A stretch of DNA of 64,000 nt from a plasmid, in sequence record NZ_CP154590.1. The stretch is one strand, 5' to 3'. The position numbers were made by a program. Below, one piece after another: positions 12,001 to 18,000 of the stretch (its first letter is position 1; the number at the start of each line of letters is the position of its first letter).

Positions 12001-15000
12001 TGAATTCACCAGGTAACGCGGATTAACCGGATATTCTAAATCCCTAATCCATAATGGAGTGCTGTTTGGGATACCAAGAGCCATTCTTATTTCCAGTAAT
12101 GTCCTGTTACCAGTTCGACCAGCAGTACATCGTTTACACATAAAATAGTCACTCAGAGTAATTATTACGGGCGGCAGATCTGTCTGCGCACAACCCTGCG
12201 TCTGTCACCCGGATGATTTTCCCCTGCCGTCATCATTTATAAGAGGATAATGAGCAGGCATATAGCCACGCCGTTAAATTACCGGATGGCCGTTTCGGTG
12301 TGATCCGATTTATTGCGTATTTAACAGTTTCCGGAAGTGTACCACGCACACGAAATAAGCAAAGCGGCAATATCTGCCCCTGCGCGACGGATCACGGGGA
12401 AGGGGATAAACACAACATATATAAGAAAACGCAGCTGATGGCATGGCACATGTTGTGTTTCTGCGCCGCTGCGCGCCGGAGGCCGGAGAGAAGATCCGGA
12501 ACAGACAATTTTCGGATCTGCACGGTGGGAAACCCGTAAAGAATATGATAATTAAACAAAATACATAAAATCATATCAGATTTGATATTTATCATTAATC
12601 ATATAACCATATCTAATATGATTATTGCACACAGAGTAGAAAATCACTCATGATATGATTTTTTTACTCAAGCGACATTTTCAGACGGAGCGTGCAGGAT
12701 GGATGAGAAAGAAGTGAATTTTTCACTCAGCTATGAGCAACTGACCCGGATAGCGGAAGAACGTATCCGTGAATGCGAGCTGGACAGCCAGGGCGCCAAA
12801 TACATCAGCGAATCGAGTAAGGCCAGCACCCTTCTGGGATTCTGGTATGAACTGGCCATTACTGGTGCGCCAATGAAAAATTACGAACAAACCAAAGCGC
12901 TCATCGACGCCGATCATCAGCGTCTCAGAAAGCTCATCTGGCCAGAGACGGATAAGTAATGACTAAGACACGCCGACCATCGCCGCTGCAGCGGCGGGTG
13001 CTGATTGTGCTGGCCGCCCTCGATGCGAAACGTCCGGGACCGGTGGCCACGCGGGATATTGAGCGGATGCTGGAGCAGGGCGGGGACGCCCCGGTGTACG
13101 GGCCGAACCTGCGCGCCTCCTGCCGGCGTATGGAGGCCGCAGGCTGGCTGCGCACCCTGCGCGCCCCGAACCTGCAGCTGGCCGTCGAGCTGACGGACGC
13201 CGGCCGTGCGCTGGCCGCTCCGCTTCTGGCTGACGAACAGGCGCGTGTCCTGGCGGAGCAACGCACGACGGAGATCCGGGTTCTGCCCCTGGTCCGGATA
13301 AAACCGGTATACGAGTCTGACAGGTTCGGTGACGACCGGCCGGTGGAGCTGGACGGTCGCTGGCACCTGGCGTGCCGGGGCGACTACGTTATCCGTCTCG
13401 ACGGCACCACCTGCCTGCAGCTGTGGAACACGGCCGGGCAAGTGATGCGACAGGAAGGCGACCCCCTGCAGGTGGCTGAGTGGTTACAGGCCTGTCACGA
13501 TGCCGGCATTGATATCCGCCTGCAGATCAACGAAAGCACCGCGCCGGAACAGGGTACACCTTCACTGAAAGGGGCTGAGTTTCCCGGCGGGCAGGCTGCA
13601 GACACGACGGAAACCTGGTACCGGTACCTGCTGAGGGCACTGCGACAATACGATGTGCAGGGGCTGTCCGCCACAAACCCGGAGCACCTTAACGCAGTGA
13701 AGCCCGGCAGGCGTAATAAGGAACAACCGCTACAGGAACGTTTTCTGGCACTGGCGAAAACGGTGGAAGGGACCCCTGGTGCCCTTCGTTCGGATCGGTA
13801 TGAAGAGGATGCCGGCCCGCTGCTGACAGAGTTGCTGGACGGATTCGGGTTCACGCCGGACCAGGCTTCCCGCCTCATCCGCCTTATCCGCTGGCCGCTG
13901 ATGAGTCAGGAAGAATATGACCGGCGCGAGCTGAACAGCCTGCTGGATGAACTGGAACAGCGACAGCTGTACTGCAACCGCGAGCAGCTGACTGAGATTG
14001 TGTTTTCACCGGTCCGCCAACCCGGCGAGCGCTGGACTGACCGTCTGCAGTGGCTCCTGATTACGGACGGATTCGGGTTCTGCAGTCCGCTGTCCCGTGA
14101 CGCAGGCGCCCGGGCGTTGGCGATCCTGGCCGGCTACACGGGGCAGGAGGTGGCGGAACATCTGGCCACGGTGATCGTCTGGAACAACCACAGCGCGGGG
14201 ACGCCGTCATGAGCACAGGCAACGTCCATTTGATTGTAACCTGCACGCGCCGCAAAACCGTGCCTGCAGGTGATGCGGTCTTTCCGGATGAACGTGACGT
14301 GGAGAGAGCTTACGGGCTCTGGATGGAAAGACTGGCGCAGGCCCGTCGCGGATCGCCCCCCATGACCGCCGGCGAACTGTATACGGGCCAGCACTGGTGC
14401 AGGGCAGTTGCAGCTGCGGCGCGAAACGGTGCCGAAATGTGGGTGATTTCAGCTGGCCTGGGGCTACTACATGCCTCTGATCCCGTGGTCCCGTATGAGG
14501 CGACATTTTCCTCGATGCCGTTCTGCCATCGCACTCACTGGGAACGACTGACAACACGTCCACTTTCGGAACGACGGTGTACCTCCCTGAAAATGCTGAT
14601 GCAGACAAGGCCTGACGATCGGTTTGTAGTGGCGGCCTCCCCAGTATACCTGCGTGCCGTGGAATCAGACCTTCTCGCGGGAAGGTACACGCTACGAGCA
14701 CCTGAACAGTTGACGGTTGTCACCTCAAAAGGCTATCAGGGCAGCCTGAAGGACAGTGTCCGGTATACGAGCGCAGGAATGATGAAGGGGCTGAATACCA
14801 ACATGACAGGATTAAATATTAGTTATGCCGTGCAGTTGATTGGTAATGAGGAAGATCGCAGCAGAACAGCACATGAGGTATATGCATGATCCGCCTGTTA
14901 TGTTCAATAGTTATGATCGTTCTGACGTTTTCTGCCAGCGCGGATGTCAGCGGCAGGGTTGTGCGCGTGCTGGATGGAGATACCGTTGAGATTCTTGAAA

Positions 15001-18000
15001 CAGGGAACAGAGTGACCCGTGTTCGTCTGGCCGGCATTGATGCACCCGAAAAGAGCCAGCCCTTTGGCCAGCGCTCCCGTCAGGCTCTTTCATCGATGGT
15101 GGCGCAGCGAACCGTAACCGTCACGGGAGGAGATACGGATCGTTATGGACGGCTATTGGGTACGGTGTGGCTTGACGCTAAGGACGTGAATGCCGAACAG
15201 ATCCGTAAGGGACTGGCCTGGGCGTACCGATATCACGGAAAACCCATCAAACCTGACTACGCTGCCCTCGAAGACGAAGCCAGACGTCTGGCAATCGGAC
15301 TCTGGTCAGCCCCCGACCAGACAGAACCCTGGCGTTGGCGGAAGCAACATCAGGGATAAGGCTCTCTCAATGACGCCCTGAATCCGAACGTTGCCGACAG
15401 CAGGGGAAACCGATTACCTGTGCCTGTGTGAAAATGCCTGCATCCTGTGCTACGAGTTCTCACGATGCCAGGCGGCCGATTTGACTGCCAGTGCCAGTGC
15501 GCGTCCTTCTCCTTTCTTTTCCTGTTATACATAGCAACACGCAGATATATATTGACGGAAATAAAATGCACTTAAGTTAAAACTAATGGACATATCAGAA
15601 CATAACCTATAAATTTATATATGTGCAGTAGAAACAAGTCTAATTAAATATATATCATTAACAATTTCCTCAGGAGTTCTAAAATGAATAAGAAGAGTGA
15701 CAGAACCTTTCCTAAACCATTTTATTTTGCAGTCCTGTATGTAATAACGTTTTCCTTTTCTTACGCATGTTTATCTGAAATTCAACTAATTGTGTCAAAT
15801 AATAATTCGCAAATTGATGCGGTGTGGCCATTAAACTGGATTACAGATCCGAACCAACGCATCTATGGTGCAGCTTTTTTAGGAGTGCTTATCTGCTGGG
15901 TTATTAATATTGTTTTCAACAAAGTTATTTTTACAAAGTATAAGAATTCGAGAAAACAATCCATCTGAAGCCCATACCTTTTAGGGATGGCGGACGCTTG
16001 TTCGCCACCTGAGCTATGCCACACGTTGTACTCCCTCAAAACCCTATCCCAAACTTTCCCTCGTTCAGCGCGTAGTTCTTTTCCTCATCATCCAGTACTC
16101 TGAGAGGAACTTTGTTTAGTTTGCACATGATACCCCCCATTTTGGTGGTTTGAACGTAAGATTACGGGTATTGATACCTTATTCAACTATTACTTTTATC
16201 CAGCTATTTGATACATAGTCGATACCGTTAATAATATCCACTGCATCGGTATCACATATTACTGTAGTTGTCCCGTAAAAAACACTAACCCATAAATATC
16301 ACCCCTGAATATTTACGCTACAAACAGCTATTACTTTGTTGTCTTGTTGACGAGGTCTTTTGTACACATGCTGTCGAACGCTAAAATTTATGCTCAACGG
16401 AAATTTCGGCAGTTCCAGCGGCTACCGGTATAAACGGAGAATAATTATGGGGGAACCGCAGAATTCGGAAAAAATCGTACGCTAAGCTAACGGTGTTCTC
16501 GTGACAGCTCTTTGACTAGGCTTTCTAAGGCCATTCTGATAGCCCTGACTTCCTGAAAAGCCATGGCTAAAATTTGTGCGGCTAAAAGGGATAACCGATG
16601 GTAAAGTAAGTTATCCCTGTCGAGATACTGAAAAGCGTTATCCTCGTTTTTCCCAAAACTGTTTTGCCAGTTCGCTCAGAGCGCTAGTTAACTGAGCGAC
16701 AGATTTCGCACTTTGCAAATTATTCTGCCCGGTCTGTACATTGGTATCAGCAGCATCGCGTATATTGATAATACTGCGGTTTATGTCTTCACTTACTGCT
16801 CCCTGCTGCTCGACCGCAGTCGCTATTTGCGCGTTCATGTCGGTAATTTCGTTAACGCGTTGGCCAATTCCATCAAGAGCTGTAGCTGCTTCCTCTGCGT
16901 GAGCTACACTCGTGTGCGCTTGCCGACTACTTTGCTCCATGACTGTAACAGCGGATTGCGCTCGCTCTTGTAGAGCGCTGATCATGCTTTGAATATCCGT
17001 TGTCGATTGCTGTGTGCGAGCAGCAAGACTGCGAACCTCATCGGCGACAACAGCAAAACCACGCCCCTGCTCACCAGCACGCGCGGCCTCAATTGCTGCG
17101 TTGAGTGCCAACAAATTCGTTTGCTCGGCGATCCCTCGTATAACGTCAAGAACTTTTGATATCTCGTTACTTTGACCTTCAAGCTCATGAATAACCTGAG
17201 TGGCTTGCCTAATTTCACCTTCAAGGGCAGTGATTGACTGGCTTGTGTGGGCTACCAGACGCTGGCCAGATGCCGTCTCAGTGTCTGCTCTTCCGGCCGC
17301 ATCTGCAGCATGCTGTGCATTGCTCGCAACCTCTTGAATGCTTGCCACCATTTGGTTTACTGCCGTTGCTATTTGATCTGTCTCTGCCTGCTGCTCAACT
17401 GTAAGTACATTGCTTGACTCAATATCCTTTAGTAGGCCTCGGGTGTGTTCGCTAAGCCGATTTGATGCATCACCTATGCGACCTACTATAGCGCCTGTTT
17501 CAGCTTGCATCATTCGTAAAGCAAACTCTATTTGGCCAAACTCATCGGTGCGCCCAGTGTAGAGGGATTGACTTAATGGGTTATTGGAAATATTCCTGGC
17601 TCTTTCAACCAGTCTTCCAAGAGGAGAGAGAATAGCCAAAACACTAACAGAGCTTAAGCTTCCTGACATTAAAGTGGCTAACACCTAGATTCTACGTCAG
17701 TACTTCAAAAAGCATAATCAAAGCCTTGATAAATATGCATTCCTTCGAAATTCAGCTTTCACCCATTGGGTGAAAGAAAAGTGCTCAAAAATATGTTAAA
17801 TTATCAGCTTTTATGACTCGATATATGGTAAAATAATAGTAAGAAAAGTAGTAAAAAGGGGTTCTAATTATGATTAATAAAATTGATTTCAAAGCTAAGA
17901 ATCTAACATCAAATGCAGGTCTTTTTCTGCTCCTTGAGAATGCAAAAAGCAATGGGATTTTTGATTTTATTGAAAATGACCTCGTATTTGATAATGACTC

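What the first reader, a model, noticed from the sequence alone, without database searches (positions are those of the whole stretch)
12540..15359. GC-rich, translationally coupled four-gene operon ending in a secreted SNase-like nuclease: candidate undescribed system
- Four + strand genes (86, 417, 226 and 157 aa) are linked by overlapping TAATG/ATGA stop-start junctions, so they are almost certainly co-translated.
- Genes 2 and 3 are very GC-rich compared with the surrounding backbone, which suggests recent acquisition.
- The 417-aa protein has an N-terminal winged-helix-like segment (LQRRVLIVLAALDAKRPGPVATRDIERMLEQ) and an internal DGFGF-containing repeat.
- The 226-aa protein matches nothing I recognise.
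- The last gene is an SNase-type nuclease with a clear signal peptide and the DGDT / RLAGIDAPE / Arg-Tyr core.
- The operon is preceded by a ~160-bp AT-rich stretch with six or more ATATGAT/ATCATAT motifs that looks like an operator or iteron array.
- The locus sits in the backbone between the resolvase operon and the resistance transposon, a typical place for cargo such as defence, exclusion or anti-plasmid functions.
- This architecture (DNA-binding specificity factor, unknown protein, secreted nuclease) does not match any system I can name.
Basis: partly seen in the sequence, partly recalled or inferred. Interest (0 to 1): 0.8.

Follow-up and report, generated by a model that had tools for sequence, protein, structure and literature searches.

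The report
Regulator-led plasmid operon with swappable cargo
The four overlapping genes are real, but they are not one new machine: a very common plasmid gene pair of unknown function (ydfA-ydeA, probably a self-controlling switch) sits in front of two separately travelling passenger genes, a DpdC-like DNA enzyme and an exported DNA-cutting enzyme of a kind found on thousands of plasmids.

Summary
Four + strand ORFs (86, 417, 226 and 157 aa) overlap by TAATG/ATGA. A conserved ATATGAT operator array lies upstream. ORF2 starts with a winged helix, and ORF4 is an intact SNase with a signal peptide.

The "undescribed four-part system" reading does not hold.
- ORF1 and ORF2 are YdfA and YdeA. This pair occurs in more than 5000 enterobacterial plasmids. 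In IncI1 plasmids it heads the transcript that carries the Abi gene ibfA.
- ORF3 is a short, solitary DpdC-like DUF6884 protein. Both family motifs are intact, but the plasmid has no dpdA or dpdB.
- ORF4 belongs to the thermonuclease family, present on at least 5000 plasmids and almost always without these partners.

Related plasmids carry ydeA+DUF6884, ydeA+SNase, ydeA+H-NS-like/Hha, or ydeA alone. ORF4 is exported, whereas ORF2 and ORF3 have no signal peptide.

Best reading: an autoregulated leader cassette (operator plus YdeA winged helix) drives interchangeable cargo genes that act independently.

One linkage does hold in my sample. DUF6884 genes at least 60% identical to ORF3 always sit directly downstream of ydeA.

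What YdfA/YdeA and the lone DpdC-like enzyme actually do is still unknown and can be tested. Interest is moderate.

The parts
12513..12533 (+). Conserved block CGGATCTGCRCGGYGGGAAAC that marks the sharp left edge of the ydfA module
   Evidence: Largely invariant across 8 plasmids whose upstream neighbours all differ. Homology of thousands of Klebsiella plasmids starts at about 12512. Function unknown.
12541..12660 (.). Operator-like array. Half-sites ATATGAT at 12543-12549 and 12598-12604. 7-3-7 palindromes at 12570-12586 (ATCATATcagATTTGAT), 12606-12622 (ACCATATctaATATGAT) and 12643-12659 (degenerate). Site centres are 36-37 bp apart.
   Evidence: Enrichment P<5e-5 in local shuffles. The motif columns are invariant while the spacers diverge in IncI1, IncF, IncHI1B and other plasmids.
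12617..12622 (+). Putative -10 hexamer TATGAT inside the central palindrome (inferred)
   Evidence: Largely invariant in alignment A3 (4 of 6 positions invariant; one IncI1 sequence has TATTAT). Its position matches the promoter and start site (about 69 nt before ydfA) predicted for the IncI1 homologue in PMC12111858. The consensus scan did not call it because the -35 is weak.
12687..12690 (+). Shine-Dalgarno GGAG, 8 nt before the ORF1 ATG
   Evidence: Sequence. Invariant in alignment A3.
12699..12959 (+). ORF1, 86 aa, YdfA family; small acidic protein of unknown function
   Evidence: 178 homologues, all on Enterobacterales plasmids, some named 'YdfA protein'. No Pfam, NCBIfam, PADLOC, PHROG or PDB match.
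12959..14212 (+). ORF2, 417 aa, long form of YdeA. Winged helix at residues 9-100 (12983-13258). Conserved core to residue 197 (to 13549). Optional helical extension at residues 198-417, with DGFGF at 294-298 and 370-374.
14209..14889 (+). ORF3, 226 aa, DUF6884 / short DpdC-like protein; predicted cytoplasmic DNA-binding, base-flipping enzyme
   Evidence: Pfam PF21818, 43.5 bits (cut-off 30). PADLOC DpdC model PDLC02818, 2.5e-43, covering positions 3-234 of 319. CxxxK (C12, K16) and SAGxG (S81-G85) are invariant down to 38% identity.
14886..15359 (+). ORF4, 157 aa, exported staphylococcal-nuclease-type thermonuclease; signal peptide at residues 1-19 (14886-14942)
   Evidence: Pfam SNase 1.2e-25. 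Alignment to S. aureus nuclease shows all catalytic and Ca2+-ligand residues. Annotated 'ParB' or 'thermonuclease family' in records.

Best explanation
This is a modular, probably autoregulated accessory operon of an I-complex-type plasmid (Enterobacter cloacae CP035635.1), not a dedicated four-part machine.

Shown:
- The first two genes are the YdfA/YdeA pair, found at the head of a variable-cargo slot in thousands of enterobacterial plasmids.
- Their promoter region carries a phylogenetically conserved array of ATATGAT half-sites and 7-3-7 palindromes.
- YdeA begins with a MarR/PadR-like winged helix.

Inferred:
- YdeA dimers bind the array, which overlaps the -10, and repress the operon. 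Expression would then be set by YdeA level, for example a burst on entry into a naive cell, then shut-off.
- The role of YdfA is unknown.
- The genes behind the pair are interchangeable cargo that use this promoter through translational coupling.
- ORF3 acts in the cytoplasm on DNA. It is a Cys/Lys DUF6884 enzyme of the YaaA/DpdC 'cantaloupe' fold. It most likely recognises and flips out a damaged or modified base. It is not a complete Dpd modification pathway.
- ORF4 is exported by Sec and acts as a Ca2+-dependent non-specific nuclease in the periplasm or outside the cell, like other plasmid thermonucleases.
- The two cargo proteins work independently of each other.
- The only tight linkage is ydeA-DUF6884.
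For: Identity and spread of the pair:
- Searches give the YdeA and YdfA names.
- at least 5000 plasmid records match the ydeA core, but only 29 match the full length.
- only 257 cluster representatives among 1.84 billion proteins, so the family is narrow and plasmid-borne.

Co-transcription with cargo: in an IncI1 plasmid, ydfA-ydeA-ibfA-(proQ-like) were reported as one transcriptional unit from RT-PCR across the gene junctions. ibfA alone gives the anti-phage phenotype. The full operon complements slightly better (EOP 0.01 versus 0.05) (PMC12111858).

Operator:
- Local enrichment.
- Footprint-like conservation across 8 divergent plasmids.
- Palindromes are found only here in the window.
- Winged-helix fold.

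Modularity of cargo:
- ydeA+DUF6884+SNase: L011, L012, L014-17.
- ydeA+DUF6884 only: L018-21, L027, L030, L009.
- ydeA+SNase without DUF6884: L031.
- DUF6884 and SNase separated by one or two other genes: L033, L023.
- ydeA followed by a 164-aa DNA-binding protein and Hha: L002, L003.
- ydeA alone: L010.

The SNase family is on at least 5000 plasmids. Distant DUF6884 genes occur alone on IncL, IncHI2 and IncHI1B plasmids. The ORF3 active-site motifs are conserved. The ORF4 catalytic residues and signal peptide are intact (sequence).
Against: - No binding, transcription or phenotype data exist for this operon. The YdeA-operator pairing is inferred from fold and proximity only.
- The 4-bp ATGA overlaps are kept in two different backbones at about 84% DNA identity (window and L011/L012). 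That coupling could reflect a need for fixed stoichiometry.
- In my sample every DUF6884 at least 60% identical to ORF3 lies directly behind a ydeA. ORF2 and ORF3 may therefore be functional partners rather than regulator and cargo.
- SNase, and a convergent SRAP gene, recur near DUF6884 in several backbones. This is more than pure chance would predict.
- The conserved second domain of YdeA (residues 125-197, invariant C152, C179, H180) and its long extension are unexplained by a simple repressor role.
Confidence: 0.6

Rival explanations
1. YdfA-YdeA-DUF6884 is a genuine three-gene functional unit, with SNase and SRAP as frequent neighbours. YdeA would bring the DpdC-like enzyme to DNA, or control it directly. 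The unit would process lesions or modified bases on plasmid DNA, for example during establishment after single-strand entry.
For: - All sampled DUF6884 genes at least 60% identical to ORF3 sit directly downstream of ydeA, usually with a 4-bp overlap. This holds in 9 distinct contexts.
- A B. subtilis DUF6884 member, YfjM, was pulled down on abasic and ribonucleotide lesions (Pfam paper).
- An SRAP (abasic-site shielding) gene converges on the locus in relatives, and a 13-codon remnant of it remains here.
- umuDC lies 5 kb away.
Against: - ydeA occurs without DUF6884 in the great majority of plasmids: at least 5000 records match ydeA, while 44 cover at least 80% of a query spanning the ORF2-ORF3 junction.
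- DUF6884 relatives at 39-51% identity stand alone on IncL, IncHI2 and IncHI1B plasmids with unrelated neighbours.
- The long YdeA extension is not required: L030, L009 and L023 have short or truncated forms.
- The sample is small and not independent of ancestry.
Confidence: 0.2
2. One reading: the four genes form one new defence, exclusion or anti-plasmid system. ORF2 supplies DNA specificity, ORF3 is an accessory factor, and ORF4 is the nuclease effector.
For: - The coupled quartet is conserved in two backbones.
- The equivalent slot in IncI1 plasmids holds the Abi gene ibfA.
- Weak PADLOC similarities: ORF3 to DpdC and to candidate PDC-M57A, ORF4 to the candidate 'SNc+LTD'.
Against: - No PADLOC model matches ORF1 or ORF2, and no Dpd partner gene is annotated on the plasmid.
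- The effector carries a signal peptide, but the proposed specificity factor does not.
- Every pairwise combination, and each gene alone, exists in relatives.
- SNase homologues are on at least 5000 plasmids without these partners.
- The operator array belongs to the ydfA module, including plasmids that lack both cargo genes.
Confidence: 0.12
3. The AT-rich repeat array plus the winged-helix protein form a replication (iteron/Rep) or partition (centromere/ParR-like) module.
For: The region is AT-rich with regularly spaced repeats next to a winged-helix protein. The locus lies beside parA/parM and a resolvase-type recombinase.
Against: - No Rep, ParA or ParM-type NTPase lies in the operon.
- ORF2 has no Pfam Rep match.
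- The repeats are 7-bp inverted half-sites overlapping a promoter, not 17-22 bp direct iterons.
- The module occurs in plasmids of many incompatibility groups, each with its own replicon and partition genes.
- MOB-suite types the replicon elsewhere.
Confidence: 0.03

Closest known systems
ydfA-ydeA(-ibfA) transcription unit of IncI1 plasmids (R64, ColIb-P9, pUA1135)
   Same: ORF1 is 64% and ORF2 residues 1-196 are 71% identical to the IncI1 proteins (L010). Gene order is the same. The upstream motif array is the same. The position is the same, between the recombinase/par genes and the variable region. In pUA1135 the pair is co-transcribed with downstream cargo.
   Different: YdeA here carries a 220-residue C-terminal extension that the 196-aa IncI1 protein lacks. 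The cargo is DUF6884+SNase instead of the Abi ATPase IbfA. No function has been shown for YdfA or YdeA in any plasmid.
DpdC of the Dpd 7-deazaguanine restriction-modification system (Salmonella Montevideo)
   Same: ORF3 matches PADLOC DpdC models (best 2.5e-43). It carries the DUF6884 CxxxK and SAGxG motifs. DpdC acts on DNA independently of DpdA and DpdB, converting preQ0-DNA to ADG-DNA (PMC10164549).
   Different: ORF3 covers only positions 3-234 of the 319-position model, so about 85 C-terminal positions are missing. No dpdA, dpdB or dpdD-K gene is annotated in the parts of the plasmid record examined. No substrate (preQ0 in DNA) is expected unless the host or an invader supplies it. ORF3 matches no NCBIfam model.
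YaaA (PDB 5CAJ) and B. subtilis YfjM: the DUF328/DUF6884 'cantaloupe' fold DNA-binding proteins
   Same: Same Pfam family as YfjM (DUF6884). That family is described as distantly related to YaaA, with a basic DNA-binding cleft and a predicted base-flipping pocket.
   Different: No direct sequence match to any solved structure. I did not model ORF3. The chromosomal proteins act in stress or repair settings, whereas ORF3 is plasmid cargo behind ydeA.
Plasmid thermonucleases (RK2/RP4 ParB of the parCBA operon and 'nuc' genes of conjugative plasmids) and S. aureus nuclease
   Same: SNase fold with all catalytic and Ca2+ residues and an N-terminal signal peptide. GenBank calls ORF4 'ParB'. From my own knowledge, not checked here, that label comes from the RK2 ParB nuclease, a Ca2+-dependent SNase homologue.
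   Different: Only 39-57% identical to most plasmid homologues. Here it is translationally coupled to a DUF6884 gene rather than lying alone or in a parCBA resolution operon. No activity data exist.
MarR/PadR-type autorepressors
   Same: Winged-helix fold (best Foldseek matches: MftR, LmrR, PadR, MarR; E-values weak, best 4.5e-3). 17-bp palindromic candidate operators overlap the promoter of the protein's own operon.
   Different: No sequence-level family membership (PaaX 0.052, below cut-off). Three additional regions have no structural relatives. Binding is untested.

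Membership tests
YdfA/YdeA plasmid gene pair | Sequence homology of both proteins to the IncI1 prototypes, adjacent and in the order ydfA then ydeA | tested here: met
   ORF1 is 64% and ORF2 (residues 1-196) 71% identical to pSL476_91 L010. Source names 'YdfA protein' and 'YdeA protein'.
YdfA/YdeA plasmid gene pair | Shared upstream promoter and operator region | tested here: met
   Motif columns are invariant in 8 plasmids, including IncI1.
DUF6884 (Pfam PF21818) | HMM score above the gathering threshold | tested here: met
   43.5 bits against a cut-off of 30, residues 50-161.
DUF6884 (Pfam PF21818) | Conserved CxxxK and LSAxxG motifs (Pfam description) | tested here: met
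   C12-T-R-R-K16 and I80-S-A-G-L-G85. Both are invariant in 11 plasmid homologues down to 38% identity.
Dpd system (DpdC as part of the DpdABC modification module) | Match to DpdC profile | tested here: met
   PADLOC PDLC02818, 2.5e-43, 146.5 bits; five further DpdC models below 1e-10.
Dpd system (DpdC as part of the DpdABC modification module) | Full-length DpdC architecture (about 300-320 residues) | tested here: not met
   ORF3 is 226 aa and aligns to positions 3-234 of 319.
Dpd system (DpdC as part of the DpdABC modification module) | Neighbouring dpdA (TGT-like) and dpdB (ParB-like ATPase) genes, plus dpdD-K restriction genes | tested here: not met
   None is annotated in the roughly 92 kb of the 116-kb record examined, which covers most but not all of the window. 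None is in any of the related loci. ORF1, ORF2 and ORF4 have no Dpd hit.
Dpd system (DpdC as part of the DpdABC modification module) | Conversion of preQ0-DNA to ADG-DNA | not testable with these tools
   Needs an enzyme assay with preQ0-modified DNA and LC-MS.
Staphylococcal nuclease (SNase, PF00565) thermonucleases | HMM match and the catalytic/Ca2+ residues D21, R35, D40, E43, R87 with Y85, Y113, Y115 | tested here: met
   1.2e-25, 90.4 bits. D32, R47, D52, E55, R89, Y87, Y114 and Y116 align to these residues.
Staphylococcal nuclease (SNase, PF00565) thermonucleases | Export (signal peptide) and Ca2+-dependent nuclease activity | tested here: inconclusive
   The N-terminus has a basic n-region, a 12-residue hydrophobic core and ASA|D (sequence). 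No signal-peptide predictor or assay was available.
MarR/PadR winged-helix repressors | Winged-helix fold | tested here: met
   The AF2 model of residues 9-100 has pLDDT about 80. The top 50 Foldseek PDB hits are nearly all wHTH regulators, with weak E-values (best 4.5e-3).
MarR/PadR winged-helix repressors | Sequence-family membership (Pfam) | tested here: not met
   Only PaaX, 14.2 bits, below the cut-off of 24.8.
MarR/PadR winged-helix repressors | Binding to a palindromic operator in its own promoter | not testable with these tools
   Candidate 7-3-7 palindromes are present and conserved. Binding needs EMSA or footprinting.
Known anti-phage defence systems (PADLOC-DB 2.0) | A complete set of system genes | tested here: not met
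   Only single-gene similarities (DpdC; candidates PDC-M57A and C3a212). Nothing for ORF1 or ORF2.

The most novel reading that the evidence does not exclude
YdfA-YdeA would be a so far unrecognised 'cargo-slot' controller shared by thousands of enterobacterial plasmids. It would give a pulse of expression to whatever gene sits behind it: the Abi gene ibfA, H-NS-like/Hha silencers, or here DUF6884 and SNase. The short, solitary DpdC-like enzymes found on about 2,900 plasmids would be a new class of plasmid-borne DNA base-editing or erasing enzymes. One example would be acting on 7-deazaguanine or other modified or damaged bases in incoming phage or plasmid DNA, which would make them defence or counter-defence factors rather than part of a Dpd system.
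Probability: 0.12. Interest if true: 0.75.

Novelty: new member of a known kind. Interest (0 to 1): 0.35.

Why it matters
As a "new system" the locus is not important. Its nuclease is an ordinary plasmid thermonuclease, and the four genes are a mosaic.

Two unanswered questions do stand out.
1. The ydfA-ydeA pair, with its conserved operator array, sits at the head of the variable region of more than 5000 clinical resistance plasmids (IncI, IncF, IncHI1B and others). It is known to be co-transcribed with at least one anti-phage gene, yet nobody has assigned it a function. If it is the switch for a cargo slot, it would help predict where plasmids keep defence and adaptation genes and when they express them.
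2. A DpdC-like enzyme without DpdA or DpdB is carried by about 2,900 plasmids, including the pOXA-48 family. What a lone DNA-directed Cys/Lys 'cantaloupe-fold' enzyme does there is an open question that can be tested directly.

Tried and rejected
- The genome-contig scan with ORF2 returned only 2 loci.
- Homology between ORF2's C-terminal half and the 395-aa 'RelB' protein upstream of the pOXA-48 DUF6884 gene: BLASTP E=0.003 on a short FGFT..QA stretch, but hhalign probability 4.6%. Rejected as evidence and kept only as a lead. No FGF-type protein lies next to the DUF6884 genes of IncHI2 or IncHI1B plasmids.
- Structure of full-length ORF2: mean pLDDT 58.6, with residues 100-250 unmodelled.
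- An ORF1 profile against PDB gave only an insignificant EF-hand-like stretch (E 0.035).
- ORF3 and the ORF2 profile had no PDB sequence relatives.
- Rfam found no RNA family in 11700-16700.
- The promoter/terminator scan found nothing significant in the operon and missed the candidate promoter.
- ORF3 has no homologue in 50,697 phage records.
- Literature searches for the RK2 ParB nuclease and EcnA returned nothing usable. The RK2 comparison therefore rests on my own knowledge.
- An iteron/replicon or partition reading was considered and rejected (see rivals).

Full report
**Where the window comes from.** Window 12300-15600 is 100% identical to Enterobacter cloacae EN3600 plasmid unnamed3 (CP035635.1, 116 kb, MOBP). 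The record carries nikAB, tra/trb, pil and shufflon genes, so it is an I-complex-type plasmid. The locus lies after ardA, psiB, umuDC, parM, parA and a tyrosine-recombinase operon (10051-11763, minus strand; Pfam Phage_integrase). It lies before ISEcp1-blaCTX-M-14 (about 17870-20257).

**Checking the observation.**
- The four + strand ORFs are at the stated coordinates. Their junctions are TAATG, ATGA and ATGA.
- GC is 0.649 for ORF2, 0.559 for ORF3, 0.563 for ORF4 and 0.494 for ORF1, against 0.524 for the window and 0.55-0.56 for the neighbouring recombinase operon. Only ORF2 stands out.
- The upstream AT-rich stretch holds 5 exact and 4 one-mismatch ATATGAT/ATCATAT copies in 117 bp, against 9 exact copies in 64 kb. 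None of 20,000 dinucleotide-preserving shuffles of the same 160 bp reached 5 (mean 0.40).
- The copies form 7-3-7 palindromes at 12570-12586 and 12606-12622, a degenerate one at 12643-12659, and half-sites at 12543 and 12598. Site centres are 36-37 bp apart.

**ORF4.**
- It matches Pfam SNase at 1.2e-25.
- By alignment to S. aureus nuclease, D32, R47, D52, E55, Y87, R89, Y114 and Y116 correspond to D21, R35, D40, E43, Y85, R87, Y113 and Y115.
- The N-terminus MIRLLCSIVMIVLTFSASA|DVSG reads as a Sec signal peptide. This is read from the sequence and is not a prediction by a tool.
- Only 15 records cover at least 80% of the ORF3+ORF4 query in one place at DNA level.

**ORF3.**
- It is not an orphan. 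Pfam DUF6884 scores 43.5 bits (cut-off 30) and PADLOC DpdC scores 2.5e-43.
- The two motifs that Pfam gives for the family, CxxxK and LSAxxG, are present as C12..K16 and S81-A-G-x-G85. They are invariant in plasmid homologues down to 38% identity.
- DpdC converts preQ0-DNA to ADG-DNA independently of DpdA and DpdB (PMC10164549).
- ORF3 aligns to only positions 3-234 of the 319-position model. No dpdA or dpdB is annotated in the parts of the plasmid record examined. No NCBIfam model matches. It is therefore DpdC-like but not part of a Dpd system.
- Relatives occur in 2936 plasmid records. Those at 39-51% identity stand alone on IncL (pOXA-48 type), IncHI2 and IncHI1B plasmids with unrelated neighbours.
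- None occurs in phage records.

**ORF1 and ORF2.**
- Homologues carry the source names 'YdfA protein' and 'YdeA protein'. The same gene names are used for R64 and pUA1135 in PMC12111858.
- The family is narrow: 257 representatives at 50% clustering among 1.84 billion proteins, mostly fragments.
- It is very common on plasmids. At least 5000 records match the first 590 nt of ORF2 at 73-95% identity. They include E. coli and Salmonella IncI and IncF plasmids and Klebsiella IncF and IncHI1B plasmids. Only 29 match the full length.
- The universal core is residues 1-197 (the IncI1 YdeA is 196 aa).
- AF2 models residues 9-100 as a winged helix. Its best Foldseek PDB matches are MarR/PadR regulators, all with weak E-values (best 4.5e-3).
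- The protein is a mosaic. Residues 198-300 exist as two alleles about 35% identical, while the flanking parts stay 85-98% identical.
- ORF1 matches nothing in Pfam, NCBIfam, PADLOC, PHROGs or PDB.

**The operator belongs to the ydfA module.** I aligned 200 nt upstream of ydfA from eight plasmids with different backbones and different upstream neighbours. ATATGA (12543-48), CATATCT.ATAT.AT (12608-22), TATGATT (12654-60), the ribosome-binding site and a left-edge block (12513-33) are largely invariant, while the spacers diverge. The TATGAT at 12617-22 is a plausible -10. Its position agrees with the promoter predicted for the IncI1 homologue, but the consensus scan did not call it.

**Published evidence on the pair.** In IncI1 pUA1135, ydfA-ydeA-ibfA and a proQ-like gene were reported as one transcriptional unit, from RT-PCR across the gene junctions. 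ibfA alone accounts for abortive infection of a P22-like phage. The whole operon complements slightly better (EOP 0.01 versus 0.05) (PMC12111858). In pS88 both genes are listed as conserved hypothetical proteins. I found no assigned function.

**Neighbourhoods.** I ran tblastn of the four proteins against 33 fetched loci and read the annotations. The arrangements are:
- The full quartet with the same 4-bp overlaps at about 84% DNA identity in IncFIA/FII and other Enterobacter and Klebsiella plasmids (L011, L012, L014-17).
- ydfA-ydeA-DUF6884 without SNase (L018-21, L027-30, L009).
- ydeA-SNase without DUF6884 (L031).
- DUF6884 and SNase separated by an acyltransferase gene (L033) or by two other genes (L023).
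- ydeA followed by a 164-aa DNA-binding protein and Hha (L002, L003).
- ydeA with neither (L004, L008, L010).
- SNase alone (L034 and most of the 5000 records).
- In several relatives an SRAP (YedK-type) gene converges on the SNase gene. In the window only its last 13 codons remain (15372-15410), and homology stops at 15412.
- One regularity survives: every sampled DUF6884 at least 60% identical to ORF3 lies immediately downstream of a ydeA gene.

**Interpretation.** The data fit a conserved leader cassette followed by exchangeable cargo that is translationally coupled to it. The cassette is the promoter, the operator, ydfA and ydeA, with the YdeA winged helix as the likely operator-binding repressor (inferred). 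ORF3 and ORF4 are two such cargo genes. ORF3 has no export signal and belongs to a DNA-binding, base-flipping enzyme family. ORF4 is exported. A 'specificity factor plus nuclease effector' complex is therefore unlikely.

The GC argument for recent acquisition fails, because the GC-rich ydeA core is shared at DNA level across many plasmid groups.

The main rival is that YdeA and DUF6884 are true functional partners, possibly in lesion or modified-base processing together with SRAP and umuDC nearby. It cannot be excluded, and I give it about 0.2.

**Novelty and interest.** Each gene belongs to a known family, and RefSeq already labels the last two. The combination is a member of a known kind, a regulator-led plasmid accessory operon. 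Its value lies in pointing to two uncharacterised but very widespread plasmid functions: the YdfA/YdeA cassette and solitary DpdC-like enzymes.

Noticed in passing
window 15372-15410 (minus strand); homology break at 15412: The last 13 codons of an SOS-response-associated peptidase (SRAP/YedK) gene. In related plasmids a full SRAP gene converges on and overlaps the SNase gene (L011 7142-7813; L012, L014, L017, L033). Here a rearrangement has deleted it and AT-rich DNA follows.
   Followed up: partly
window 16638-17684 (minus strand): A 348-aa ORF with HAMP and MCP-signalling domains (Pfam 4e-44). It is an N-terminally truncated methyl-accepting chemotaxis protein, not annotated in CP035635.1, and lies just upstream of ISEcp1-blaCTX-M-14.
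   Followed up: partly
window 13550-13858 (ORF2 residues 198-300): YdeA long forms are mosaics. This segment exists as two alleles only about 35% identical, while residues 1-100 and 301-417 stay 85-98% identical. Both alleles occur upstream of DUF6884. This suggests recombination or diversifying selection on a specificity region.
   Followed up: partly
window 12513-12533: The conserved block CGGATCTGCRCGGYGGGAAAC marks the sharp left boundary of the ydfA module in plasmids whose upstream neighbours are all different (parDE, arsR, pcoE, recombinase operon). It could be a recombination junction or a further regulatory site.
   Followed up: no
L005 3514-5672 (pOXA-48-type IncL plasmid NZ_CP068903.1): A DUF6884 gene 51% identical to ORF3 is preceded by a 395-aa ribbon-helix-helix ('RelB') protein and a 90-aa HTH protein that overlaps its start. 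The 395-aa protein has three FGFT/FDFS..Q helix motifs that recall the two DGFGF motifs of ORF2. The resemblance is not statistically supported (hhalign probability 4.6%).
   Followed up: partly
window 12392-12595 (minus strand): The CDS annotated in GenBank as EVV94_26045 (67 aa) runs across the conserved operator array on the opposite strand. It is probably a spurious call.
   Followed up: no
window 13331-13549 (ORF2 residues 125-197): The second domain of the YdeA core is very strongly conserved, with invariant RGD, LDGTTC, C152, C179 and H180, ending in QINES. AF2 could not model it (pLDDT 30-40). A simple repressor role does not explain it.
   Followed up: no
window 15450-15968: An AT-rich stretch (GC 0.33-0.36) with four promoter-like matches at 15526-15685, followed by a 94-aa hydrophobic ORF (15684-15968) with no family match. 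It lies between the operon and the truncated MCP gene.
   Followed up: no
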